From a virus (Duplodnaviria > Heunggongvirae > Uroviricota > Caudoviricetes): 40,441 bases of DNA. The DNA lies in the IMG/VR virus record IMGVR_UViG_2531839530_000005, positions 1-40,441 of that record. One strand, 5' to 3'. Below the pieces are notes generated by a model. That model did not search any database, was not told where the DNA came from, and saw nothing but the letters and a program-made list of their open reading frames with translations. Positions 9,189 to 38,096 of this stretch are shown here, in pieces; positions within the stretch are counted from its first letter, which is position 1, and each line of letters starts with the position of its first letter. The position numbers were made by a program, and so were the translations under genes.

Positions 9189-10219
9189 TCTACATCTCCG
9201 ACTTTGTCCAAAGTGCCTTTTGCCAATAGTTCTTTGCCACCTTTAGCCAGGCAAAGCAGGTCCATATACCACGCCTGCCCTCGGGTGTCGCCAGTATAAT
9301 CAATGCTGCCCACAATGTAATCACCGTCAGTATTAATGCTGGCAGACTGTGACATGCCTGGCAGACCGTTAACGTAGAGATTACCGTCGCTTTCAGACTC
9401 ATCCAGTCGTGCTGGCGATTTCGCTACCTGGTCATTACTCAAAGAGACACGGTATACAGATGCCTGATCCAGACGAATAAGCCCACCGAGCTTAATATTT
9501 GGATTAATCAGGCATCTGACATTTACGCCAGCTCCCATCGTCTGTTGTGGCATACCGATAAGCCCGGTGTTAGCATTCAACACCGTAGCAACACCAATAT
9601 ATTTATCTTCAGGAACAATATTTACCAGATTATTTTCATACCACCAGTTAGCCTTACACTGCCCTGCGATATGATTCATCAACCTTGATGTGTTTTGATA
9701 AACAACGCGACCCCGGGGAAATACCGTTTCAGGCATGTCAGGAACTGCGCCGGATTCGATGCCATATGGTTCGAATGATTTCATACCCAGACTGAAAAGA
9801 TCTCTGTACTTCCAGCCAGCTGCCACTGTGGTTTTCACACTTGCGTTCAGGTGGCCTTCCCAGCTGTCAATACACTGCAACATGATCCAACTGTCTGTGG
9901 CATTATCTTTACCAGTGACAGTAAAACGGATATCTCCATTGAATATCATACCAACGTTTTCATCAAGATAATTACCTGCTGCATCCGGTTGCCCCTTGTA
10001 TCCGGCAATAACCTGTATACGCGAAAACTCCTTCTGCATAATCCGGTTCTGAGTGGTAGGAGACAGGTTATAAACCTTAAAATTTCCAACGAATCCATTA
10101 AATATGGTCGCAGGCATTTTCTGAATATTGAAAGTGACTTTAAGCTCAGAAATTTTTATCCCGTCGCCCTTATCATCAACAAGCAATAATTCAAAGTGAC
10201 GCATCCAGTTTTTCGACAT
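9185..10219 (-). CDS. Tail/baseplate hub protein (P2 gpD / Mu gp44-like position)
   Basis: Position between tape measure region and gpV-like gene; start set at Met preceded by GGAG. Confidence 0.45.
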   Translation of the reverse strand: MSKNWMRHFELLLVDDKGDGIKISELKVTFNIQKMPATIFNGFVGNFKVYNLSPTTQNRIMQKEFSRIQVIAGYKGQPDAAGNYLDENVGMIFNGDIRFTVTGKDNATDSWIMLQCIDSWEGHLNASVKTTVAAGWKYRDLFSLGMKSFEPYGIESGAVPDMPETVFPRGRVVYQNTSRLMNHIAGQCKANWWYENNLVNIVPEDKYIGVATVLNANTGLIGMPQQTMGAGVNVRCLINPNIKLGGLIRLDQASVYRVSLSNDQVAKSPARLDESESDGNLYVNGLPGMSQSASINTDGDYIVGSIDYTGDTRGQAWYMDLLCLAKGGKELLAKGTLDKVGDVE

Positions 10220-10523
10220 TGTTACTCCGTAAAACATAGAGGTGTGAGAGCGTTCCAAGATCGAATTGCGTCGGATTCTCCTGCCCTGCCACGTCGCAGA
10301 GCACCACCAGAGAAAAACCCAGATCCATATATCGATACTGTGCCAGCAGGTCAGCCCCAGTAATCATCGGTATACCTGATATAATGGCGGAGCCATTGCT
10401 GTCAGCAAGATCCAGAACCCAGTACTCGCCTCGCCAGATGACAGACAGGTGATAAACCGAACCGTTAATTGTGGTGGCAAAAGTCTGATTGTCAGCAACC
10501 AGTGGGATTTCTACGGCTTGCAT
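10191..10523 (-). CDS. Tail protein (small, post-tape-measure)
   Basis: Position only. Confidence 0.35.
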   Translation of the reverse strand: MQAVEIPLVADNQTFATTINGSVYHLSVIWRGEYWVLDLADSNGSAIISGIPMITGADLLAQYRYMDLGFSLVVLCDVAGQENPTQFDLGTLSHLYVLRSNNVEKLDASL

Positions 10524-10526
10524 GAA

Positions 10527-11177
10527 TCACCTTCCCAGAAATAAATTGCTCAAATACCCATCAACAGTGGAGATACCTTCTTGCGCCATCTGTGGCAGCG
10601 ATTTCAGAATGGAATTATTCGGCAGCACCGTTGTTTTGGTGCCTGTATTCTGCACAGCAGACGTTCCGACTCCCTCGGTCATATTGTTTTTCGGGGCAAC
10701 CCTGACTGACTGCGTGGAGGTAATAATTACTTCCCTGAGGGTAAGTGTCGCCAGAAGCACATTTTCACTACTCTTATCGGTCGTAACCTCCAGCGTTTTT
10801 ATCAACATATTGTTGTAAATACGCTTGCCGGTTGTCACATCGAAAGGAATACGATTCCGCTGCAGGTTAAGCAGTTCCTGATACAGTTCTTTCGGGCTCA
10901 GCCCCAGTAAACTGGTAGCCGTCAGGTTACTGGCAAAATCAAGCAGCGATCCGCCTCCGGAAAAACCGGTTTCCATCACAACCTCAGAAGGGCGCCTGAA
11001 TGCGTGTTCTGATATATAACCAGCGCCCTCACCACTGGCACCAGCATTCGTGGGCTGTTCAACCGGATGTTCCGTAATTTCCAGGGCGTCAGTGTGCTTT
11101 TCGGTAATAACCACATCAGGAATAATGATTCCTATTGAGCGGGTTCGCTGCTGCAGTAAAACAGATAAAAAGTCCAT
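10527..11177 (-). CDS. Tail protein (post-tape-measure)
   Basis: Position; start overlaps tape-measure stop. Confidence 0.35.
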   Translation of the reverse strand: MDFLSVLLQQRTRSIGIIIPDVVITEKHTDALEITEHPVEQPTNAGASGEGAGYISEHAFRRPSEVVMETGFSGGGSLLDFASNLTATSLLGLSPKELYQELLNLQRNRIPFDVTTGKRIYNNMLIKTLEVTTDKSSENVLLATLTLREVIITSTQSVRVAPKNNMTEGVGTSAVQNTGTKTTVLPNNSILKSLPQMAQEGISTVDGYLSNLFLGR

Positions 11178-13204
11178 TACGCAGGTCCTTTTAATTGCTG
11201 TACCGCCCTGGCATTTACAGCCCCCTGCTTGTCAGCGATCAGATTAGCCGCCTCCTGAGGGTTGTTAACTCCATGAACATTTATAACAGTCTGCTGGTTA
11301 AGGCTGCCAGCGGCGGCCTGATACGCCAGCGGGCTGTTCCAGTTTGAATAACCTTCTTTGCGCGCCATCGACTGCATCAATGCTCCCATAGTCTGGGGAT
11401 CTGTAAGATTCAATATTGCATTCGGTGATACTCCCATCCATTTCGCAACATCCTGTGCATACTTTTTCGGATCGTTGTTATCACCTGCCGGGGCCCAGGT
11501 ACTGACAATATCCTGAATAGTCTGTAATGCTCGTCCGGTTGTTTTCCCGGTAAAGTAACGCATGAGCTGGTTTTTCATCGCCTCCCAGCCCTCAAGAGCT
11601 GATTCGAAAAACCGGAACCCTTTACCGCTCACCGGGCGAATGTTCCCGGGGTTATTGTTGCGATCAGCAAGAGTACCGCCGCCGGGGATGTCGGGCTGGA
11701 CGTTGGAGCCATGCACTACACCGTTACTCTGTCCCTGCCGGATAACTTTACCGGGTCCCCCGTGCAACCAGTCCATCCACGCAGGCCATTCACGGACCTC
11801 ACTGACATCCCTGCGTCCGATATCTGTTTTTATACCAATAGCAGCCAGCGTGTCGCCGATAATTCGCTTCGTATACCTCAGTGAAGATTTTGCGCTATCG
11901 GCAATATTTTCTCTGTCACTAACAATATAGCCCGCGTAAAGCGCCCACAATTTAAGCCAGGGTGGGACCGGTAAACCTGATATTTTTCCGAAAGCCCCCA
12001 GAACCCTGGATACCCAGACACCCGCGATGAATGTACCGAGGATTTCCAGTGCATTTTGCCAGCCGCCAACACCATCTTTTAGTTCCAGAAGGTGATCACG
12101 AAGCCAGGTGATCGCATCCTTCGCTTTATCTATTGCCGGTTGCCATTTTTCCCAGTCGATAAGACTGTTACCGCCTTCTTTCCATGTTTTGTAGTCTTCC
12201 CACAAGAGACCGAGAGCCACGATCAGACCGGTAATCAGCCCTATAGGTGACATCCAGAAAGTAGAGTTAAGTATCCGCATGGCGACAACCAGACCGCCGA
12301 TAACCTCTATCAGGGTTTTCGTTTCGGCATCCAGTTTCCCCCACCACTCGATGATATCGCCGACACCATCGACTATCCGAAATGCTACCCGCCCGACTAT
12401 CTCACCCAGCCAGAGGATCCCCTTTATGACCTTTGTGATGGTGACTTCAATTTTGGGAAAATTTTCAATTATCTTTTTGCGCAGGTTATCAATCTGCCCC
12501 GCCAGTCCGTCCGCAAGATTCGATCCGATTTTGTCCCGCGCCATCCCGGCCATTTCACCGAGCGATTTCAGCGAGGTCATAAACCGGTTTGACGATAAGG
12601 CAGCCTGATCGGCATTAAATCCGATCGCTTTCACCATTTCTGAATACTGAGCGCTGAACTGCCCCACACCACGACGCATGGCCATCAGGGTATTTTCGTC
12701 AATGCCCAGCATCTGCGCATACTGGTTAGCCCGGTAATACGGCATACCGCTGAGCTTCTGGCCTACACCTGTAAAAATAGCGGCCATGTCACGCATGTTG
12801 CCGCTGGCATCACGGGTCTGTACGCCCAGGCGATTCAGAAAGCCTTCTGCTCCGGGATTGTTACGAATAAACCGGGAGAGGCTTTCCAGAGAAGATCGCG
12901 CAGCGTCCACACTGCCGCCAACCTGCGAAACCGCATAGCCAATAGACTGAATTCCCTGGACTGTCGCGCCGGTGCGCAGTGACGCCCAGTAAAGATTATC
13001 CAGACCAGAGGCGATCTTAGCCGTGAAAGCCACCACGGACAGCGCAGCTCCTTCGACGGCCAGCCCCATTTTGATGACATTTGCAGTTGTACCGGCGAGG
13101 ACAGAACCGAACTTTTTCGCTCCTGCATCATCCACACTGAAGCCAAGCGAGACGAGGAAATCTTTAATAGTCTCGGCGTTCATTATCCTCTCTCCATTTC
13201 TCAA
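11177..13204 (-). CDS. Tail tape measure protein with C-terminal NNNPGNIRP-containing domain
   Basis: 675-aa protein with hydrophobic central segments, directly downstream of chaperone pair. Confidence 0.7.
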   Translation of the reverse strand: MRNGERIMNAETIKDFLVSLGFSVDDAGAKKFGSVLAGTTANVIKMGLAVEGAALSVVAFTAKIASGLDNLYWASLRTGATVQGIQSIGYAVSQVGGSVDAARSSLESLSRFIRNNPGAEGFLNRLGVQTRDASGNMRDMAAIFTGVGQKLSGMPYYRANQYAQMLGIDENTLMAMRRGVGQFSAQYSEMVKAIGFNADQAALSSNRFMTSLKSLGEMAGMARDKIGSNLADGLAGQIDNLRKKIIENFPKIEVTITKVIKGILWLGEIVGRVAFRIVDGVGDIIEWWGKLDAETKTLIEVIGGLVVAMRILNSTFWMSPIGLITGLIVALGLLWEDYKTWKEGGNSLIDWEKWQPAIDKAKDAITWLRDHLLELKDGVGGWQNALEILGTFIAGVWVSRVLGAFGKISGLPVPPWLKLWALYAGYIVSDRENIADSAKSSLRYTKRIIGDTLAAIGIKTDIGRRDVSEVREWPAWMDWLHGGPGKVIRQGQSNGVVHGSNVQPDIPGGGTLADRNNNPGNIRPVSGKGFRFFESALEGWEAMKNQLMRYFTGKTTGRALQTIQDIVSTWAPAGDNNDPKKYAQDVAKWMGVSPNAILNLTDPQTMGALMQSMARKEGYSNWNSPLAYQAAAGSLNQQTVINVHGVNNPQEAANLIADKQGAVNARAVQQLKGPA

Positions 13205-13361
13205 TGCGCCGCTGGTTATCCGCTTTTACCGCCAGATGGTCATTCAAGAGAGCAATGTCGTACAAATCGACAGAGCCATCTTTAAGTGATGTATAAGGAA
13301 TTAACCCGGCGTCAACCGGATTGAGAAGGTAGGACAGCCCGTCCGGCAGGCTGTTAAACAT
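13164..13361 (-). CDS. Tail assembly chaperone frameshift extension (gpT-like part of G/GT)
   Basis: Reading frame is open upstream through the 3' end of the chaperone gene in the -1 frame; start overlaps chaperone stop (TGATG). Confidence 0.5.
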   Translation of the reverse strand: MFNSLPDGLSYLLNPVDAGLIPYTSLKDGSVDLYDIALLNDHLAVKADNQRRIEKWREDNERRDY

Positions 13362-13813
13362 CAGCCCTGTTGCAGGCTCTGCGTCGTGCTGGTAAGGGGT
13401 GTAGGCAAAAAATTTCCCAGCGAATCGGCGACCACCCGCGCCACCAGCTGCAGCATGACCAGCAAGTCAATATCATCAAACATCAGTTCGCCCTGGGTAA
13501 ATACCGGCACCCATCCATCCATATGACGCCGCGACACCACCGCAAGACAGGGATGAATAATCGCATCGGTGTCATCTTCGGTCAGGGAAGACAGTTCCTC
13601 AGCGATACGCGGGAGCATGGTTTCAAACACCGGTTTTAACTGCTCGAATTTCACGGTGTCGATTTTGCCGTCAGCAGGCAAACGGGAGCGAATGCTCCCG
13701 AAATCTGACATCATTCCCGCCAGTACCGGCAGAAGTTTGCGGGTCACTTTCAGCTGGTCAAAAACGCTGAGTTTTGCCACGCGATATTTCACGCCTTTGA
13801 TTTCGAATTCCAT
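13361..13813 (-). CDS. Tail assembly chaperone (gpG-like)
   Basis: Acidic 150-aa protein immediately upstream of tape measure, with frameshift-compatible downstream ORF. Confidence 0.55.
   Translation of the reverse strand: MEFEIKGVKYRVAKLSVFDQLKVTRKLLPVLAGMMSDFGSIRSRLPADGKIDTVKFEQLKPVFETMLPRIAEELSSLTEDDTDAIIHPCLAVVSRRHMDGWVPVFTQGELMFDDIDLLVMLQLVARVVADSLGNFLPTPLTSTTQSLQQG
13406..13412 (-). other. Candidate -1 ribosomal slippery site (minus strand T_TTT_TTG within GGGAAATTTTTTGCC)
   Basis: Homopolymeric run near 3' end of chaperone; -1 frame from here is stop-free into ORF 13164-13361. Confidence 0.4.
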
Positions 13814-13816
13814 GTA

Positions 13817-14551
13817 TTAAAACTCCCCGAGAACCTGGTCAATCTTGCCGCAGTCAAACACCCACGGCATCGTATTACCGGTTTTAGCGTTGGCGTTACC
13901 CGCAGATGAAACGATGATGCTGGACAACAGAGCAAACTGTTCAGGCGGGATCAGCAAATCACGCGGGACCACAGAGTAACCAGAAGCGGCCCACGCATCA
14001 GACAGCACCTGGTTAATGCTTGCGCGGATTTCGTCCGGTGTTGAGGTTGCCCACGTTTTGGCAGCGTTGTTGACAGGCACGCCGTCCAGGGTAACAAGGC
14101 CTTTCAGGTTTAATGCGGAATCGCCAACATATACCTGTTCATCGTTATCCATCTGCCATTTCAGTTGCATCCCGTCATACTTCTGCGTATCAATCGGGCG
14201 GCCGACCTGCTGAGCAGCCTGCAATTCTATGACCGTCCAGCCAAGTTCCATCCCCCACAGGTTCAGCGGGTTACCGGATTTGCCGGTATCCACGTTCACG
14301 CCAGCAATAGCGGTTGAGTCTTTGCCTACCCAGTTTTTGCCATTCGGATTTGCACCAGTACCCGCAGCGGCGAAGCTGGTATTCGTCCAGCTGGAAATGT
14401 CATCTGCGATAGAGACATCTTCACGCAACTGAATATCGCGGGTCCAGGTGTACCCCACCAGTGGCAGGTTCAGCGTCTGGTCGAGTCGCTCCAGCTCCCC
14501 GATGAGAAAGGCACCAGAGCTGTCAACGGTTGCCTGATCAAAAGTAATCAT
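13817..14551 (-). CDS. Major structural protein: major tail (tube) protein by position, or small HK97/encapsulin-like major capsid protein
   Basis: 244 aa; sits between head genes and G/GT chaperone; identity unresolved. Confidence 0.45.
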   Translation of the reverse strand: MITFDQATVDSSGAFLIGELERLDQTLNLPLVGYTWTRDIQLREDVSIADDISSWTNTSFAAAGTGANPNGKNWVGKDSTAIAGVNVDTGKSGNPLNLWGMELGWTVIELQAAQQVGRPIDTQKYDGMQLKWQMDNDEQVYVGDSALNLKGLVTLDGVPVNNAAKTWATSTPDEIRASINQVLSDAWAASGYSVVPRDLLIPPEQFALLSSIIVSSAGNANAKTGNTMPWVFDCGKIDQVLGEF

Positions 14552-14562
14552 TCGTCTGTTCC

Positions 14563-15069
14563 TTAAATCTTCCAGGAAATTTCTGCATTGCCGTTAGCAT
14601 CACCGGCACCTGTGAATTCAGCGTTGGTCAGCACCACATTTTTGCCACTGACTGACGTGGACATGAATCCACCCAGCGGCACTTTCATGGATTCATCAGT
14701 GGAGACGACAACGTATACCGGGTCGCCTTTTTTGATAGTGCTGGCATCAAAATCAGAACCGAGATTAACGGTCACGTAGCCACGCTTCATGGCGTCGCCC
14801 GGGAAGTTCTTGCCTGTTCCCACCTAGCGAACCATGTCCGGCTGCGACGTGGTCGGATAAGGGCGCACGTAGATCCCCTTCACCTTGTCTGCGGTATCAC
14901 CATCTGCCAGCGGCACGAAAAAACCGTCATCATCGTATTTACCAGCCAGCCCATAGGCAGCGAAGGCGTTATCGGATTTAAGGACCACCGGTTCGACGGT
15001 TAAGTCCTGCGGGCGAGAGACAGCCCCGGCAATACCAACAGGCATCCGGTACAGAAATACATTATTCAT
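14563..15069 (-). pseudogene. Head structural/decoration-like gene interrupted by in-frame TAG (81 aa + amber + 86 aa)
   Basis: TAG at 14824-14826 separates two ORFs in the same frame; no SD before downstream GTG. Confidence 0.4.
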
Positions 15070-15072
15070 TTT

Positions 15073-16293
15073 TTACCCTTTACGGTTTGCCCAGAATTCA
15101 GCGTTTTGTTTGTTCAGGGAAGCGATACTGGTCATGCCCATGTTTAGGCGCTGTGCATCGCCGGTGGTGGCGCGGGTGTTTCGCCCTTTGGCAATCTCAG
15201 ACACGGCATTAAACGCCATGTCGACCGATTGTTTCGGCAATTTGCGGATATCCGCATCACCAACTATCTGGCGAACCAGCGTTTTGTCAGCGGAAGCCAG
15301 AACCTCGCGTTTGAACGCGGTCGGTTTCATCTTACGGCTCAGATCGATACCCGGAACAATAACTTCGGCACGCCAGGCTGAGTCACCAGTAATCGTGGTT
15401 TCCTCTTCATCGTCCTCGCCGTCACCGGTCGGATTATCGTCAGGCTTATTATCGTTATCGCCCGTGGCATTTCCTTCCAGCTTAGCCAGCAGGGCTTTCA
15501 GTAATGTTTTGAGGTCATCATCACTGTCGCCGGTTGGGCCTCCCCCCATCTCTGGTGCTTTGTCCGGTAGTGGTTGCTGCGGGGACAGGTTGATATTGAG
15601 ATTAACGCCCTGCGGCAAATCCCCCTCATCTCCTGTAACCGATGCGGGAGCCGACTCCACCAGTTCGTTCATGGTGTCGGCATCTCCTGTCTTGATGGCC
15701 GCACGCATGCGGTTCCACCAGTTTTTCTTTTGATTTGCCATTGTGTCTCTGTCTCCAATTGCACAACGATTTCCGGCTCTGCCTTTAGGGACAAGAGCCA
15801 CATGGTTTCCGGTAATATCGACCTGCTCAGCTTTACCTGGCTCGGTCTGCTCGTACTCCGCGTCATAGCCGCACGACACTTCGCGCAGGCCATCTTCGAT
15901 AAGCTGAATGGCGTTTTCGTCTTTGACGATAAGGTCAGCCAGCATCAAATCAGACTGCTCACCCATCCCGCGCCGGACATTCTGGAGGTGCCCGACAGCA
16001 AGCTCTTTCCAGTTCTCGGGATTTACCAGCCGCACATTCCCGTTTTCATCTTCAGGATGCAGAATCGTGATGCTCATCCCTTCGAATGAGGCAAGCGTGG
16101 CCGGATGGAATACCTGCTCAGGAGAACGCGTGACGACTATTTCACCGAACTTATCGGGTTTCAGTTTTGGCAGGTCATCAGCACCATAGAGCTGCTTACC
16201 TGTTCGTCCTATCGGCACGTCTCTGCACAGCAACGAGCCGTCAGCCAGCTGATAGCGGGTTTCCCCCAGCCGGGTATTGAAAAAATATTTCAT
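15073..16293 (-). CDS. Putative prohead protease/scaffold protein with acidic low-complexity linker
   Basis: Conserved N-terminal domain, Asp/Glu-rich middle, position after head-morphogenesis gene. Confidence 0.5.
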   Translation of the reverse strand: MKYFFNTRLGETRYQLADGSLLCRDVPIGRTGKQLYGADDLPKLKPDKFGEIVVTRSPEQVFHPATLASFEGMSITILHPEDENGNVRLVNPENWKELAVGHLQNVRRGMGEQSDLMLADLIVKDENAIQLIEDGLREVSCGYDAEYEQTEPGKAEQVDITGNHVALVPKGRAGNRCAIGDRDTMANQKKNWWNRMRAAIKTGDADTMNELVESAPASVTGDEGDLPQGVNLNINLSPQQPLPDKAPEMGGGPTGDSDDDLKTLLKALLAKLEGNATGDNDNKPDDNPTGDGEDDEEETTITGDSAWRAEVIVPGIDLSRKMKPTAFKREVLASADKTLVRQIVGDADIRKLPKQSVDMAFNAVSEIAKGRNTRATTGDAQRLNMGMTSIASLNKQNAEFWANRKG

Positions 16294-16307
16294 GTGTTAC
16301 CTGCGAT

Positions 16308-17042
16308 TCAGGCGGGATAAGATTGGGAGGTGGGAAAAACGATTTCTTTATAACAGCGACAATTCGGGAGCTCGCCAGCGTGACCTGTCATGCCGTCAAG
16401 CGTTGGAGGTTTGCCCCATTCGACAAATTTACCTTCCATTTCCCGATGAGAATGCCTGACGTCACCATCTTCGGCTGTACGCCAGATATAACCATTCGAA
16501 CCAATTGACAGCGCACGCGCCTGATCCAGCGCGCCGGTTGCACGTCCAAGTTCAGTACGGGCAATCAGGTCAGCTCTGGACTTTGCTATATCACCCGATG
16601 CGGCTATTTCTTTAGCAAAATATTCTGCTCTCCCACCGGTCACAACAGCTTCTGTCGCCCGATTCTGGATGTCGTACACCCTGTCAGCCGCCTCGAGGGG
16701 GAGCGATTTGATGTACTTGACCTGTTCGGCGATGATGGATTGCATCACCTGGCCCACAGGAGCGCTTTCCACAAGATTGCGGAGCTCGCGACTGATGTTC
16801 TTGCTGTGTTGCCGCCAAACTTTCTCGTTCTGCCGGGTTAGGTCCGCAGTAAAGTTTTCCGCGACCTTTGTCGCCCAGGGGGGGATGATTTCACTGTAGC
16901 GTTCCAGCGCCTCAATAATTTCCGTGATACTGTCATTTGAACCATCGTAGCGACCATTTACGATGTCTCCGACCGCCCGCGCTATCCTGCGTAGGCTGGT
17001 TCGATAGCGGATTTCCGCCTGACGGTTCCTGCGGTTCGTCAT
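16308..17042 (-). CDS. Head morphogenesis protein (Mu gpF / SPP1 gp7 family)
   Basis: C-terminal HSHREMEGK...CRCYKEIVFP motif characteristic of Mu F-like minor head proteins. Confidence 0.65.
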   Translation of the reverse strand: MTNRRNRQAEIRYRTSLRRIARAVGDIVNGRYDGSNDSITEIIEALERYSEIIPPWATKVAENFTADLTRQNEKVWRQHSKNISRELRNLVESAPVGQVMQSIIAEQVKYIKSLPLEAADRVYDIQNRATEAVVTGGRAEYFAKEIAASGDIAKSRADLIARTELGRATGALDQARALSIGSNGYIWRTAEDGDVRHSHREMEGKFVEWGKPPTLDGMTGHAGELPNCRCYKEIVFPTSQSYPA

Positions 17043-18399
17043 CAGATTCGCCGATGCCGGGCGGCGCTTCATCTTCGGCATTCTCGATGTCCTCGTCGGT
17101 AATGGATGCCCCGATGCCGGTTACGTCAGAATTTTCGCGCAAATCAGTCATAGCGGCTTTCAGTGTCATCAGACCATCACCCAGCGCCGTACTGATTGCG
17201 TTGGTAGTGTTTAACGCCACCGTTGAGCGATCGACATCAGACATTTGCCAGAGCGGGTTAAACTCAAACGTGAAATCATCCGGGAGCGGCTTGCCAAGTT
17301 CCGAACGATGCATGATGTCCAGTATCCGACGCACCGGAAGACGTAAACGCCTCTCCTGCAACGAACTGATGCGGTCGTAATAGTTGGCAAGATCTGCATC
17401 ACCGGTAGAAAATCCTTTCGGGGACTGTCCGAACAACCGCACCAGTGGAATACCAACAGCGCCACTAATCTGTTCTGCAAACTGCGATAGGATGTCATCC
17501 AGACCACTGAAGCTGTACTGATGCGTTTCAAACTTATCCCGCGAGTCCATGAGCGTCATGCCTTCATTGCTCTGGAACTGTCGAATCAGGTCGATATTCT
17601 TCAGCAACGCTTCATACGCAGGACCACCAAGTGCGATAAGCTCGCGTAGCTTCTCCACGCTGTAGGTACGCAAATGCGCCTTGTAGACCAGCTGCGCCGC
17701 GCCGACAGTAGCGCTGTCGAACGCGGTAAGACGATCCCAGATACGCTCTACAACCGACATTCCCCATTCGTTCTCGGTCATCTTCTGCTGAAATGGCAGC
17801 GTGACGCCATCAAAGCGAATCAGGCGACTGTGATGAATGCGCCAGGCAGGAATTCCCGTTGCTGTGGTCACCACATCGTAAAACTCAGGTTTACCCAGGT
17901 CCGGCCCCATATCTTTAATGCGGCGGGTCAGTACCGGGTCGATCATCCAGCGGTCGAGCGGGAGAATCCCCTTAAACTTGCCCTTACAGATGGTTTCGGG
18001 TCGCAGCGGGGTCATTGGTGCCTGCCCCTCAATCATGATGAAACCCACCGCGCCGCCGTAGAGGCGCGACCATTTCAGCACGTCATTCAGCGCATCCCAG
18101 ATTTGCAACTCATCCAGTTGTGATTCGAGAATGCCACGATCTTTTGCATCAATTTCCGAAGTGATGCGAATGCCTTTGCGGGTCATATCATCCGGGATAG
18201 CATCGACTGCTTCACCGATGATCCAGGATGAACGATAGGACCATTCCACCAGCATGCGGTTACGACTGGTGAAATTAGCCCGGTAGGTGGATGCTGAGTG
18301 CTGGTTAGGTGTCTGCATCCCTACGCGGGCAATAAAATTCTCATAACCATCAGCTGTAGCCTGCGCAGTTCGCCGCAGGGCTTGTTTGTTTCGTGCCAT
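16933..18399 (-). CDS. Portal protein
   Basis: 488 aa immediately downstream of large terminase; acidic C-terminus. Confidence 0.65.
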   Translation of the reverse strand: MARNKQALRRTAQATADGYENFIARVGMQTPNQHSASTYRANFTSRNRMLVEWSYRSSWIIGEAVDAIPDDMTRKGIRITSEIDAKDRGILESQLDELQIWDALNDVLKWSRLYGGAVGFIMIEGQAPMTPLRPETICKGKFKGILPLDRWMIDPVLTRRIKDMGPDLGKPEFYDVVTTATGIPAWRIHHSRLIRFDGVTLPFQQKMTENEWGMSVVERIWDRLTAFDSATVGAAQLVYKAHLRTYSVEKLRELIALGGPAYEALLKNIDLIRQFQSNEGMTLMDSRDKFETHQYSFSGLDDILSQFAEQISGAVGIPLVRLFGQSPKGFSTGDADLANYYDRISSLQERRLRLPVRRILDIMHRSELGKPLPDDFTFEFNPLWQMSDVDRSTVALNTTNAISTALGDGLMTLKAAMTDLRENSDVTGIGASITDEDIENAEDEAPPGIGESDDEPQEPSGGNPLSNQPTQDSAGGRRHRKWSLRWFK

Positions 18400-20021
18400 C
18401 AGGCCTGTCTCCCTAGCAGCTCCCAGATGTTCAGGGCTGAATTCATTGGGGCATAGTTGATCATCACCGAGTCGGCAAGGTTTGGCGACCGGGTTCCATC
18501 AGGCTGTTTATCAATAACGATTTTTCCCACACTATTAATGGAATAGGTCGGCTGCGAAAGCTCGATGATGAGTTTATCTTTGAGTGCCATGCTACTGCTG
18601 ATTGAGATGATCTCGTCCGGGTTGTAAGCCATACCTTCAACCACGGCGCGCCAGGTATTCTGAAAAAGTTTACGTAACCGCCACCAGCTCTGGGCTTTGG
18701 CGTTAGCGAAGAAGTCCTTGTTCAGACGTGCGGCTTGCCCGTTGTCCCCGCGAACAGCTTCATCATCCGGATCAAATACCGCGCCACTACCTCGAAACGG
18801 TGTGGCAAGTATTGACGGTCGACGCGCAGCGTTACGCAGTTCGTTGATAGCGCGTGCATCGCCGCGAACGCCAGCGCCCAGCCCGTCCTCGTCAAAGCGA
18901 AACTCTTCGAGGTTGTCCTGTTCGCAAAAGCCGAAAACCTTCTCAACGGACTGATAAATGTCGCTGCCCACACCGGACCATTCCCGCACATTCTCCAGGA
19001 GGAAGCCATGACGGGTGGAAAAGGCATTTTTGTCCCTGCCTTCGTCGGCGACATCCATCGCGCCAAGTCGTTTGCCTGTTGGCTGGATACCCAGTTTGAT
19101 ATGCGCATCAACTGCAGCCTGTACCCATTCGGATGGAATCAGGACGCCTTCCGCTGATGCGCTGTAGTTCAGATCAAGTTCCTGTGCCACCACCACCGGA
19201 TTATCGATTTTCTCGCATTCCCTGCGATACCACTCTTCATCCTTGCGAAGATCATCTCGCCAGTGGAATGTGAATACCGGTATCTTCCCGCCATGACGCT
19301 TCTGAGCGAACGGGTTCGCCATGCCGTTAACTGAACTCAGGTCAATACGGCAACGCGTCGTTTGTGACAACGCCGCATCAATCAGCAGAGGACGCTGAAG
19401 GAATGCAGCCTCATCAACCAGATAAAGCGTGGTACGGTCACCACGACCAATATTATCGCCAGCCTCGCCTTTGATAACGGCACCAGTTTCAGGAAACTCA
19501 ACACGCATATATGGCGCGTGCTTCTTCTCGCTCCACGAACCGCGAAACTCTACAGGTAGCGTTTCCACGAACTTGCGCGCCTTCCAGAACAATGCTTTCG
19601 GGTCACCAGTGCTGTCGACGTATTCCTCTTTACGGGAGCCGAAACCGATAACCATTTCTTTGTTGAAGAGACAAAGCGAGCAGGCCAGTCCGATCGCGGT
19701 CCAACTGAGCCCCATTTCACGGGATTTTTCGGTAATACCATTCTCCCGATTGCTCCAGCGTTCCATAATCCAGTGGATCCACTCCTCCTGCTTAGGGAAG
19801 AGTAAAAACGGAATGGTCACCGGCAGGCCATAATCAATATTACGCGGGTCCGTTGTCATGCCCCAGTCGATGATGAACTGAGCCGGATTAGTTCGGTAAA
19901 ACTGTTTTAGTGCAGGCAATATTTCAGGATTCTGGCGAATGCGCTGTAGGCGTTCCATCCGCCATTCAAAAACCATCTGGTAATCAGGATGTTTAAAATC
20001 GAAGGGGAATGGTAACGGCAT
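18399..20021 (-). CDS. Terminase large subunit
   Basis: 540 aa; Walker-like region and nuclease-like C-terminus; position after small subunit. Confidence 0.8.
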
Positions 20022-24359: not shown

Positions 24360-24503
24360 TTGGACATTATCGCCACCGTCAGGTGCTAATCATCGTGGTG
24401 GCGAACTGTGCGGGGTTAGCACTACCGGGTACGGAAACCGGCGAGCCTTTCGGCTCCCCCACACAGCCCGCCATAAATCGCGAATGTGACTGTGCAAACG
24501 ATA

Positions 24504-24527
24504 TGAAAAAAAGACGCGGGCGCGTCT
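24504..24527 (-). terminator. tR'-like terminator downstream of Q-like gene
   Basis: Palindrome AGACGCG-GG-CGCGTCT followed by T7 on minus strand, about 60 nt past the predicted promoter. Confidence 0.55.
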
Positions 24528-24589
24528 CATATCGCTCCGTAAACATCCGGGGTGCTAATCCCGACGCCAGATTTTGCTGGCGCGTGAGG

Positions 24590-24619
24590 AATATAGCCCC
24601 GGATAACAGATTGAGTCAA
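24590..24619 (-). promoter_or_regulatory. pR'-like late promoter (-35 TTGACT, 18-nt spacer, -10 TATATT)
   Basis: Read on minus strand; -35 overlaps the Q-like stop codon. Confidence 0.4.
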
Positions 24620-26615: not shown

Positions 26616-26771
26616 TTACTCCTCAGATTCGTAAGCTGTGAAGACAGCAACCTCCGTCTGGCCGGTACGGATTCGTACCTCGCAGAGGTCTTTCCTCGTT
26701 ACCAGTGCCGTCACTATGACGGTTAAACAGATGACGATCAGGGCGATTAACATCGCCTTTTGCTGCTTCAT
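26616..26771 (-). CDS. hok: Hok/Gef-family type I toxin (51 aa)
   Basis: Translation MKQQKAMLIALIVICLTVIVTALVTRKDLCEVRIRTGQTEVAVFTAYESEE; not in the >=60-aa ORF track. Confidence 0.85.
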   Translation of the reverse strand: MKQQKAMLIALIVICLTVIVTALVTRKDLCEVRIRTGQTEVAVFTAYESEE

Positions 26772-26981
26772 AGCCTGCTTCTCCTTGACCTTTCGGTCCG
26801 TAAGAGGCTAATCTCTATGTGTCGCATAGATATGGCCTCAGATTAATGTTAAGCGTCTTGCAGGACGCGTAATGTTAACTGGGGCTTTTCTCTATCTGCC
26901 GTTGGTGTTCATGCCCGAGGCAGATAGCCTCAAGCACCCGCAGCAATTCTACTTAACTCCCGTCACCTCGCCAATATGAAA

Positions 26982-30444: not shown

Positions 30445-31239
30445 TTACCCCCTGAAGCCTGGCGGGATCGCACTGTCCGGCAACGAGACGGTGTTAACCT
30501 GTCGGAGCAACGTCTCAGGCCGAACACCTTTCGGTGCGAACAAGCCCTGGTATTCATTGGCGATGCTGTGTCGAATCACCTGCTCAGGTGTAAAACCCTG
30601 CTGACGGAATTTTTCCAGTTCCCGTATCGCCCCGTTAGCGCCCTGCTCCGTTCGAATCGGTTTTCGCAATGCCTGTCTGAACCGGACCCACTCATGCCAG
30701 AGTGTTTCCGGCAACCAATCAGGCAGCTCAATAGCCTCCGGCTCGAATTTTTTAGACGCTCGTTTTTGGCGAGGGGGATTTAGGGGGAGATCAGTATTTA
30801 GATCTTCCTCTTCCTCTTCCTCTTCCTCTGGTAACGCTTTTTGATCCGTTTGTGTAACGCTGGCAGCGTTACCTTTTCGTTTCAGTTCGCGTATTTTTGT
30901 AACTCGCTCGTTTGTAACCGCCCGTTTTTTAGAGCTTTTTCCGTTATGACGTTCAAAGTTAGGTAGAGAAAGCCCAACGTCATTTTCGACCAGCCATCCA
31001 ACCTGAATTAACGCATCAGCAAAACCAGCCATAAAAGTGATGCGATCTATTGCACTTTTTGTAACGCCGCGAGCGTTACAATCTGCATTACCGTCTATCA
31101 TTTGTTGATCCGCCCATGCCCAGAAGCGAATAACCTTCCCTAATGCGGCATCTGGATCAATATTCAGAATCTCAGCAAGCCTGAATATTTCCGGCTTATC
31201 CGGCGTAATAACCTCGAGCTTTATCCAGTTTGAAGCCAT
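30445..31239 (-). CDS. Replication initiation protein (lambda O / YdaU-like) with internal poly-Glu linker
   Basis: Position upstream of DnaC-like gene; palindromic sites within coding sequence; EEEEEEEED encoded by GAAGAG repeat. Confidence 0.5.
   Translation of the reverse strand: MASNWIKLEVITPDKPEIFRLAEILNIDPDAALGKVIRFWAWADQQMIDGNADCNARGVTKSAIDRITFMAGFADALIQVGWLVENDVGLSLPNFERHNGKSSKKRAVTNERVTKIRELKRKGNAASVTQTDQKALPEEEEEEEEDLNTDLPLNPPRQKRASKKFEPEAIELPDWLPETLWHEWVRFRQALRKPIRTEQGANGAIRELEKFRQQGFTPEQVIRHSIANEYQGLFAPKGVRPETLLRQVNTVSLPDSAIPPGFRG
30854..30872. repeat. 19-bp palindrome GTAACGC-TGGCA-GCGTTAC (copy 1)
   Basis: Perfect 7-bp arms; inside replication gene. Confidence 0.6.
31061..31079. 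repeat. 19-bp palindrome GTAACGC-CGCGA-GCGTTAC (copy 2)
   Basis: Perfect 7-bp arms; inside replication gene. Confidence 0.6.
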
Positions 31240-33173: not shown

Positions 33174-33568
33174 CGGAATACCTTATTACTGGTTGTGTGA
33201 GAACTCCAGTATACCACCGAGCCTGAAGTGGTAAAAAGACAGGCGCACAACACGAAGGCGCATTTCCGGTATTCATAAAGAGTCGGTCTTGTCTGTTAAA
33301 TTTAAATGGTGGGAGTGCGCCTCCGGTTGTAAATAACGACATTGCTATGTGTAGTCTTTGGCGGCATCAGTTCTACTCCGTGGCTGCCCTGTCGCCCCTT
33401 TTTAAAGTGAATTTTGTGATGCGGTGAATGCGGCTAAGCGCACGCGGCACAGTTAAAAGCATCAGTGTTATGGGTGGATTATCCGGCGTTAATTGTTAAC
33501 TGGTTAACGTCACCTGGAGGCACCAGGCACCGCATCGACAAAATTCATTTGTAAAAATGGAGATAATT

Positions 33569-37901: not shown

Positions 37902-38096
37902 ATGAGATATGACGATGTTAAACCATGTCCGTTTTGTGGTTGTCCATCTGTTACGGTGAAAGCAATTTCAGGATATTACCGGGCAAAATGCAACGGATGC
38001 GAATCCCGAACTGGCTATGGTGGAAGTGAAAAAGAAGCACTCGAAAGATGGAATAAACGAACTACTGGAAATAATAATGGAGGTGTTCATGTATAA
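37902..38096 (+). CDS. ralR: RalR/Lar restriction-alleviation protein
   Basis: MRYDDVKPCPFCGCPSVTVKAISGYYRAKCNGCESRTGYGG... recalled as matching Rac RalR. Confidence 0.8.
   Translation: MRYDDVKPCPFCGCPSVTVKAISGYYRAKCNGCESRTGYGGSEKEALERWNKRTTGNNNGGVHV

What the first reader, a model, noticed from the sequence alone, without database searches (positions are those of the whole stretch)
14563..15069. Head gene split by a single in-frame TAG
ORFs 14824-15069 and 14563-14823 are in the same frame and separated only by TAG at 14824-14826. The downstream part begins with GTG and has no Shine-Dalgarno sequence, so independent initiation is unlikely. It is either a nonsense mutation, suggesting the prophage is partly defective, or requires amber suppression or readthrough.
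Basis: seen in the sequence. Interest (0 to 1): 0.5.

Follow-up and report, generated by a model that had tools for sequence, protein, structure and literature searches.

The report
Amber mutation in prophage capsid-cement gene
A single C-to-T change at a DNA-methylation hotspot has put a stop codon in the middle of a capsid "cement" protein gene of an already crippled E. coli prophage; this is ordinary gene decay, not a recoding signal.

Summary
On the minus strand, 15069..14563 is one 168-codon gene interrupted only by TAG at 14826..14824. The joined protein matches phage capsid cement/decoration families over its full length. All 40 aligned homologues are single chains.

The closest relative, E. 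coli 300709, carries the same prophage at the same site. It differs in 2.4 kb only at this base, reading CAG (Gln82). The ancestral context CGC-CAG-GTG contains CCAGG, a Dcm methylation site, and the mutated base is the methylated inner C. CCAGG to CTAGG is the classic 5-methylcytosine deamination amber hotspot.

The same TAG sits on five different haplotypes, including the Shigella dysenteriae remnant and three apparently intact prophages. Each haplotype is closer to a CAG haplotype than to any other TAG haplotype, so the mutation recurs. Two of three other nonsense mutations in related head modules are also CCTGG to CCTAG.

There is no suppressor tRNA in the window, and the stop is not conserved.

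The window prophage also carries a 3.9 kb deletion beside the gene. It fuses the truncated major capsid gene to the tail-tube 3' end and removes the connector and sheath genes. The prophage is therefore defective regardless of the amber codon.

Ordinary pseudogenisation; low interest.

The parts
14563..15069 (-). Capsid cement/decoration protein gene, 168 codons plus stop. It is a pseudogene because of an internal amber codon.
   Evidence: Pfam PF23982 XM1_gp53_minor_capsid (E=1.7e-30, residues 1-165 on profile 1-153/154) and PF22758 Phage_cement for the joined protein. PHROG 563 virion structural protein. The AF2 model matches the capsid entries of XM1, Pam3, T1 and E217. Intact 507-nt CDS in E. 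coli 300709 and phage vB_EcoM-606R2.
14824..14826 (-). Amber codon TAG replacing CAG (Gln82). This is a single C>T change at 14826 on the coding strand (G>A on the + strand).
   Evidence: It is the only difference from E. coli 300709 in 801 nt and in 2399 nt. Homologues read CAG in 126 of 138 loci held; all 12 TAG loci were ascertained by TAG.
14823..14827 (-). CTAGG, the mutated remnant of the Dcm site CCAGG. The T at 14826 occupies the position of the methylated inner cytosine.
   Evidence: Context GTTCGC-CAG-GTGGG in CAG relatives against GTTCGC-TAG-GTGGG here. Literature on lacI amber hotspots at CCAGG and on VSP repair.
14827..15069 (-). N-terminal fragment, 81 codons. It is the only part expected to be translated efficiently.
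   Evidence: Matches PHROG 563 positions 4-81 of 173. The exact product is recorded on 132 contigs.
14563..14823 (-). C-terminal fragment, codons 83-168. It has no start signal of its own.
   Evidence: Matches PHROG 563 positions 86-163. No SD-like sequence lies upstream of GTG 14823.
13817..14551 (-). Truncated major capsid protein gene (DUF2184). It is fused in frame to the last ~25 codons of the tail-tube gene and encodes 244 aa instead of 313.
   Evidence: Pfam Major_capside positions 4-158 of 251 only, plus a weak match to the tube C-terminus. BLAST against phage 606R2. The exact fusion protein is EMZ82963.1 of E. coli 2722950, recorded on 9 contigs.
13895..13902 (.). Junction of a ~3.9 kb deletion at a short microhomology (GTTAYCCG). 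The missing DNA is phage 606R2 coordinates 15071-18970: capsid C-terminus, head-tail connector genes, tail terminator, sheath and most of the tube.
   Evidence: No place in any of 5426 complete E. coli genomes covers 80% or more of a 1.8 kb query that spans the junction.
15073..16293 (-). Upstream neighbour: DUF2213 (Pa193_gp24-type) head scaffold/protease-like gene. It is intact.
   Evidence: Pfam PF09979, E=2.6e-42.
13361..13813 (-). Tail assembly chaperone gene, now directly downstream of the capsid-tube fusion.
   Evidence: Pfam PF21822 Phage_TAC_15, E=2.1e-31.

Best explanation
The two ORFs are the halves of one capsid cement (decoration) protein gene. The gene was inactivated by a single CAG-to-TAG (Gln82-to-amber) transition. 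The mutated cytosine is the inner C of a Dcm site (CCAGG). In E. coli that base is 5-methylcytosine, and its spontaneous deamination gives thymine. If very-short-patch repair misses the T:G mismatch, the result is CTAGG and hence an amber codon. A silent prophage is not under selection for its late genes, so the mutation persists. Ribosomes should terminate after residue 81, about half of a single conserved fold, so no functional cement protein is expected. Shown here: the gene identity, the single-base difference, the Dcm context, the recurrence on different backgrounds, and the adjacent deletion that makes this prophage defective anyway. Inferred: methylation of this site in the host, deamination as the chemical cause, and loss of protein function.
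For: The joined 168-aa protein matches cement-protein families end to end. Its AF2 model (pLDDT 81.7) aligns over about 167 columns with chains of the XM1, Pam3, T1, FCWL1 and E217 capsid entries. Forty homologues from many Enterobacterales are single chains of 163-174 aa with a continuous, conserved PDMVRQVG motif across the site. E. coli 300709 carries the same prophage at the same pphA/yebY site at 99.9% identity, and it reads CAG with no other difference in 2399 nt. The ancestral context is CCAGG and the change is at the inner C. TAG occurs on five haplotypes, each nearer to a CAG haplotype than to any other TAG haplotype. For example, L007 is identical to UPEC 26-1 apart from TAG, yet differs from the window haplotype at 37 sites. 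Fitch parsimony gives a minimum of 5 changes. Any tract shared between the window and the other TAG haplotypes is at most 29-184 nt. Among about 130 related loci not selected for stops, 2 of 3 other nonsense mutations are CCTGG-to-CCTAG. Only 9 of 753 possible nonsense changes are of that type (P about 4e-4). CTAG is depleted in the window (13 observed against 157 expected), as expected under VSP repair. Literature: lacI amber hotspots at CCAGG, and VSP repair.
Against: Dcm methylation of this site in the source strain could not be checked, because the host genome is not available. The TAG loci were ascertained through TAG. The family is mosaic, and 6 of 100 other biallelic columns also need at least 5 steps on the same tree. 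Some of the five 'origins' (L008, L011, the Shigella haplotype) could therefore reflect recombination rather than new mutation. Three TAG-bearing prophages look intact in the 20 kb held, so loss of the cement protein may not be lethal to the phage, or those mutations are simply recent. Loss of function of the truncated protein is inferred, not measured.
Confidence: 0.85

Rival explanations
1. There was one ancient TAG allele, spread among mosaic prophages by recombination. This would imply that phages carrying it are viable, for example because the cement protein is dispensable.
For: The family recombines: 6 of 100 other biallelic columns need at least 5 steps on the tree. L007, L008 and L011 share a local haplotype right next to the TAG and look intact in the 20 kb held.
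Against: The window and L007 are each identical over 2399 nt to a CAG relative, yet differ from each other at 37 sites. A transferred tract would have to be at most 29 nt from the L007 type or at most 184 nt from the Shigella type. The site is a textbook hotspot.
Confidence: 0.07
2. The TAG is decoded, either by programmed readthrough or by a host or phage amber suppressor, so that full-length cement protein is still made.
For: The GTG and the rest of the frame are intact. A Gln-inserting supE-type suppressor would restore the wild-type protein exactly (from my own knowledge). Some TAG-bearing prophages look otherwise intact.
Against: There is no tRNA gene in the window. The stop is a rare derived allele, 1 TAG against at least 120 CAG contigs in IMG/VR, and no exact TAG 61-mer of two haplotypes was found in 5426 complete E. 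coli genomes. TAG haplotypes have no accompanying sequence change that could act as a signal. All 40 distant homologues have a sense codon here. In this window the prophage also lacks capsid, sheath and tube sequence, so readthrough would serve nothing.
Confidence: 0.03
3. The TAG is a sequencing or base-calling artefact. Nanopore base-callers are known to err at Dcm motifs (from my own knowledge).
For: The site is a Dcm motif. Several of the other differences between the window and strain 300709 look like G/T calls within G-runs.
Against: The same TAG is in independent assemblies from different technologies and years. These include S. dysenteriae Sd197 (CP000034), strain 1617, several draft genomes and Logan assemblies of sequencing runs. 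In all it is recorded on 132 contigs.
Confidence: 0.02
4. There are two functional genes: ribosomes terminating at TAG re-initiate at the adjacent GTG, and the two halves assemble into a working protein.
For: The stop and the GTG abut, an arrangement that can allow low-level termination-reinitiation (from my own knowledge). Gene callers annotate two ORFs.
Against: There is no SD-like sequence. GTG is simply the ancestral Val83 codon, present in all CAG alleles. Every homologue is a single chain. Both halves map to one profile, and the model aligns over its full length to cement-protein chains in solved capsid structures.
Confidence: 0.02

Closest known systems
lacI amber hotspots at CCAGG (Coulondre, Miller et al. 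1978) and lambda cI amber mutations at Dcm sites, which were used to define very-short-patch repair
   Same: The sequence change is the same: CCAGG to CTAGG at the inner, Dcm-methylated cytosine, converting CAG (Gln) to TAG. It also recurs.
   Different: Here it is seen in natural prophage populations rather than in laboratory mutant collections. Methylation and deamination are inferred, not demonstrated.
Capsid cement/decoration proteins XM1 gp53, Pam3 gp6 and E217 gp24 (Pfam PF23982 and PF22758)
   Same: The joined protein gives a full-length sequence-profile match and has a similar predicted fold. The gene lies between the DUF2213 scaffold-like gene and the DUF2184 major capsid gene.
   Different: This copy is cut at codon 82 of 168. 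Sequence identity to the solved proteins is only 14-19%.
Split cement ORFs annotated in the Shigella dysenteriae Sd197 prophage remnant (ABB62208.1)
   Same: The 81-aa N-terminal product is identical, and the TAG is at the same codon.
   Different: It has a different haplotype (22 differences in 1.1 kb). It sits at a different chromosomal site and is flanked by IS1 copies. This points to an independent origin.
Defective prophages of E. coli that decay by deletion and point mutation
   Same: This prophage combines a nonsense mutation with a microhomology-mediated deletion. The sister strain 300709 carries a different deletion in the same prophage.
   Different: Nothing notable.

Membership tests
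Phage capsid cement/decoration protein (PF23982 XM1_gp53_minor_capsid / PF22758 Phage_cement) | Sequence match above the curated threshold across the whole domain | tested here: met
   106.4 bits against a cut-off of 27, residues 1-165 on profile 1-153/154. PF22758 scores 77.6 bits. The two fragments match the two halves of PHROG 563.
Phage capsid cement/decoration protein (PF23982 XM1_gp53_minor_capsid / PF22758 Phage_cement) | Fold like that of the cement proteins in solved capsid structures | tested here: met
   The AF2 model of the intact allele P0017 has pLDDT 81.7 and pTM 0.78. Foldseek top hits are 7kmx_a (XM1, TM 0.65), 9kzj_I (T1), 8hdt_G (Pam3, TM 0.65), FCWL1, 8frs_f (E217) and Pa193.
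Phage capsid cement/decoration protein (PF23982 XM1_gp53_minor_capsid / PF22758 Phage_cement) | Gene placed in the head module next to the major capsid gene | tested here: met
   The gene order is portal, Mu-F-like, DUF2213, cement, DUF2184 capsid, both in the window and in relatives.
Phage capsid cement/decoration protein (PF23982 XM1_gp53_minor_capsid / PF22758 Phage_cement) | Protein bound on the capsid surface and stabilising it | not testable with these tools
   This needs virion proteomics or cryo-EM of an intact relative.
5-methylcytosine (Dcm) deamination hotspot mutation | Ancestral sequence is CCWGG and the changed base is the inner C, as a C-to-T transition | tested here: met
   GTTCGC-CAG-GTG in 126 loci against GTTCGC-TAG-GTG in 12 loci. 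On the + strand this is CCTGG to CCTAG.
5-methylcytosine (Dcm) deamination hotspot mutation | Independent recurrence at the same base | tested here: met
   There are five TAG haplotypes. Two of them are identical to CAG relatives over 2399 nt. Fitch parsimony gives a minimum of 5 changes. Caveat: there is some recombination noise.
5-methylcytosine (Dcm) deamination hotspot mutation | Excess of mutations at Dcm sites compared with other sites | tested here: met
   2 of 3 unselected nonsense mutations in related head modules are CCTGG to CCTAG, while only 9 of 753 possible nonsense changes are of that type. The sample is small.
5-methylcytosine (Dcm) deamination hotspot mutation | Host encodes an active Dcm and the site is methylated | not testable with these tools
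   The host genome outside the window is not available. CTAG depletion (13 against 157 expected) is only indirect evidence.
Programmed stop-codon readthrough or suppressor-dependent gene | The stop codon is conserved among homologues | tested here: not met
   CAG is found in at least 120 IMG/VR contigs against 1 with TAG. All 40 protein homologues have a sense codon here.
Programmed stop-codon readthrough or suppressor-dependent gene | A suppressor tRNA is carried by the element | tested here: not met
   ARAGORN finds no tRNA gene in the window.
Programmed stop-codon readthrough or suppressor-dependent gene | A dedicated sequence or structure signal accompanies the stop | tested here: not met
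   TAG alleles are identical to CAG alleles over 2.4 kb apart from the one base.
Defective (cryptic) prophage | Loss of genes essential for virion assembly | tested here: met
   A 3.9 kb deletion relative to phage vB_EcoM-606R2 and to L007, L008 and L011 removes the capsid C-terminus, connector genes, tail terminator, sheath and most of the tube.

The most novel reading that the evidence does not exclude
The amber allele may not be a dead end. Three otherwise intact-looking prophages carry it. The cement protein could therefore be dispensable or needed only under some conditions. Alternatively, recurrent Dcm-hotspot ambers in head genes could be favoured in lysogens as a quick route to prophage disarmament. 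In that case, in-frame C-CAG-G and CC-TGG codons would act as built-in weak points that shape how prophages decay.
Probability: 0.05. Interest if true: 0.45.

Novelty: already known. Interest (0 to 1): 0.15.

Why it matters
This matters little on its own. It shows that this prophage is a decaying remnant and that the split ORFs should be annotated as one pseudogene. The modest added value is a natural-population example of the classic Dcm amber hotspot. It recurs in several E. coli and Shigella prophages, and similar CCTGG-to-CCTAG hits occur in the portal and capsid genes. This suggests that Dcm sites may be a common first point of failure when prophage late genes drift without selection.

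Tried and rejected
- **Direct PDB sequence search.** A search with the joined protein found nothing useful. A fold search of an AF2 model was used instead.
- **GTDB representative genomes.** Scanning them for the TAG 20-mer gave only one hit, in a Planctomycetota MAG. About one chance match is expected for a 20-mer in 596 Gb, so I treated it as chance without inspecting the locus. The source genome is not a species representative.
- **Extending contig L008.** I tried to extend it to see whether it is a free phage genome.
- **61-mer searches of complete E. coli genomes.** No exact TAG allele was found for two haplotypes. These searches cannot exclude TAG on other local haplotypes.
- **Records naming the gene 'hypothetical protein'.** I checked whether H131 and H136, which carry this label instead of 'cement protein', hide split genes. 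Both are intact 507-nt CDSs.
- **Nanopore Dcm-motif base-calling artefact.** Considered and rejected because the TAG appears in many independent assemblies.
- **Apparent internal stops.** Those at MCP codon 255 and MuF codon 209 were not taken as point nonsense mutations. MCP 255 lies in gapped, indel-shifted alignments. MuF 209 in L018 (annotated 'internal stop' in RefSeq) was not resolved.

Full report
**Observation**

The genes here run on the minus strand. ORF 15069..14824 (81 codons plus TAG) and ORF 14823..14563 (86 codons from GTG) are in one frame and touch each other. The whole span is 507 nt. No Shine-Dalgarno-like run precedes the GTG. The description is accurate.

**What the gene is**

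- With Gln at the stop, the joined 168-aa protein matches Pfam XM1_gp53_minor_capsid (E=1.7e-30, profile 1-153/154) and Phage_cement (E217 gp24/Pam3 gp6) end to end.
- The two fragments hit the two halves of PHROG 563, 'virion structural protein'.
- Forty homologues from E. coli, Hafnia, Serratia, Rahnella, Edwardsiella, Pantoea, Xenorhabdus, Morganella and others are all single chains of 163-174 aa. They have a conserved, continuous ...PDMVRQVG... across the site.
- An AlphaFold model of the intact allele (pLDDT 81.7, pTM 0.78) aligns over its full length with chains of the XM1, T1, Pam3, FCWL1, E217 and Pa193 capsid entries.
- The gene lies between a DUF2213 scaffold-like gene and the DUF2184 major capsid gene.
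- It is therefore a capsid cement/decoration gene, and the stop falls half-way through a single conserved fold.

**What happened to it**

- In E. coli 300709 and in phage vB_EcoM-606R2 the gene is an intact 507-nt CDS. The codon there is CAG.
- Strain 300709 carries the same prophage at the same chromosomal site, between pphA/yebW and yebY, with 100% identical flanks and 99.9% identity overall.
- Across 2399 nt of the head module, the only difference from the window is this base.
- The lesion is a C-to-T transition at 14826 on the coding strand.

**Why this base**

- The ancestral sequence is CGC-CAG-GTG. It contains CCAGG, a Dcm site, and the mutated base is the inner cytosine that Dcm methylates.
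- Deamination of 5-methylcytosine gives thymine. CCAGG to CTAGG is the change that produced the dominant amber hotspots in lacI.
- Very-short-patch repair counteracts these T:G mismatches but does not remove all of them.
- The window shows the usual E. coli CTAG depletion, 13 observed against 157 expected.

**Recurrence**

Looking up the exact 81-aa product returned many contigs:

- A near-identical assembly with the same layout as the window (L005).
- The IS1-flanked prophage remnant of Shigella dysenteriae (Sd197, 1617 and others), at a different chromosomal site.
- Three prophages (L007, L008, L011) whose head and tail modules look complete in the 20 kb held.

These fall into five haplotypes. 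Each is closer to a CAG haplotype than to any other TAG haplotype.

- L007 is identical to UPEC 26-1 over 2399 nt except for TAG. It differs from the window haplotype at 37 sites.
- Any tract shared between the window and the other TAG types is at most 29 nt (L007 type) or at most 184 nt (Shigella type).
- On a neighbour-joining tree of the flanking 1.1 kb, the amber column needs five changes. Six of 100 other biallelic columns need as many, so recombination adds some noise.
- At least two origins are secure, and five are likely.

The allele is rare overall:

- One TAG contig against at least 120 CAG contigs in IMG/VR.
- No exact TAG 61-mer of two haplotypes in 5426 complete E. coli genomes.

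**Control for the mechanism**

- About 130 related loci were not selected for stops. Three other nonsense point mutations appear in their head modules.
- Portal W59 (TCC-TGG to TCC-TAG) and capsid W187 (GCC-TGG to GCC-TAG) are both CCTGG to CCTAG, that is, Dcm sites. Portal Q126 is not at a Dcm site.
- Only 9 of 753 possible single-base nonsense changes in these genes are of the Dcm type, which gives P of about 4e-4 for 2 of 3.
- The sample is small.

**State of the prophage**

- Relative to phage 606R2 the window lacks about 3.9 kb (phage coordinates 15071-18970). The junction is at 13895-13902, at a short microhomology.
- The deletion removes the last third of the major capsid gene, the connector genes, the tail terminator, the sheath and most of the tube. 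It leaves a 244-aa in-frame capsid-tube fusion.
- That exact fusion protein is recorded for E. coli 2722950 and is found on nine contigs.
- No place in any complete E. coli genome covers 80% or more of a 1.8 kb query spanning this junction.
- Strain 300709 has a different deletion in the same prophage, removing the tail and baseplate region.
- The element is therefore decaying in several ways, and the amber codon is not what decides its viability.

**Alternatives**

- Readthrough or suppression is not supported. There is no tRNA gene in the window, the stop is not conserved, and nothing accompanies it that could act as a signal.
- A sequencing artefact is excluded by the many independent assemblies that share the TAG.
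- Re-initiation at GTG to give two working halves has no support.
- A single origin spread by recombination is unlikely for the window and L007. It cannot be fully excluded for the other haplotypes.

**Verdict**

This is an ordinary amber pseudogene in a defective E. coli prophage, with a well-understood mutational cause. The mechanism is already known, so the interest is low. The only small point of note is the natural recurrence of the hotspot.

Noticed in passing
window 13817-14551 and junction 13895-13902: A 3.9 kb deletion fuses the truncated major capsid gene in frame to the last ~25 codons of the tail-tube gene, giving a 244-aa chimera. The exact protein is annotated in E. coli 2722950.
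   Followed up: yes
window 5586-13894 vs L004 (E. coli 300709) 5586-7007: The sister strain has the same prophage at the same site but a different, larger deletion that removes the baseplate, tape measure and chaperone region. These are two independent decay routes from one ancestor.
   Followed up: partly
L140 (IMGVR_UViG_2681813271_000001), portal gene; L026 (IMGVR_UViG_3300045988_012260), capsid gene: Other amber mutations occur at Dcm sites in related prophages: portal W59 TCC-TGG to TAG, and capsid W187 GCC-TGG to TAG. L140 also has a non-Dcm amber at portal Q126.
   Followed up: partly
L007, L008, L011 (Logan assemblies ERR1822450, SRR29658272, SRR6362209): These prophages carry the same amber codon but have complete-looking head and tail modules in the 20 kb held. 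Whether they still form particles is unknown. The L008 contig is 39.5 kb, about phage-genome size.
   Followed up: partly
window 2607, 16883, 20681, 21340, 21735, 34301 and others vs L004: Many of the few differences from strain 300709 are G in the window against T in 300709, mostly within G-rich runs. This pattern looks like systematic sequencing error in one of the two assemblies.
   Followed up: no
window 30803-30808: There is a 6-bp insertion (TCTTCC, beside a TCTTCC copy) relative to strain 300709. It lies within the ORF at 30445..31239 (-).
   Followed up: no
window 24394-24596 (-), 26769-26939 (-), 33346-33397 (+), 38095-38273 (-), 39835-39979: Rfam gathering-level hits were found: C4 antisense RNA with its a1/b1 targets and isrK, sok, DicF, RalA, and the chromosomal SraC/RyeA-SdsR/RyeB pair next to yebY.
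   Followed up: no
whole window: CTAG occurs 13 times against about 157 expected from base composition. CCWGG occurs 91 times against about 67 expected.
   Followed up: partly
window 1398-2371 and 3045-4094: A Pin-type invertase sits next to a short tail-fibre (gp53-like) fragment. The segment also holds fragments of integrase, LexA-like and tail-fibre-assembly genes and an acyltransferase gene. It is a scrambled tail-fibre end of the prophage, as annotated in strain 300709.
   Followed up: no
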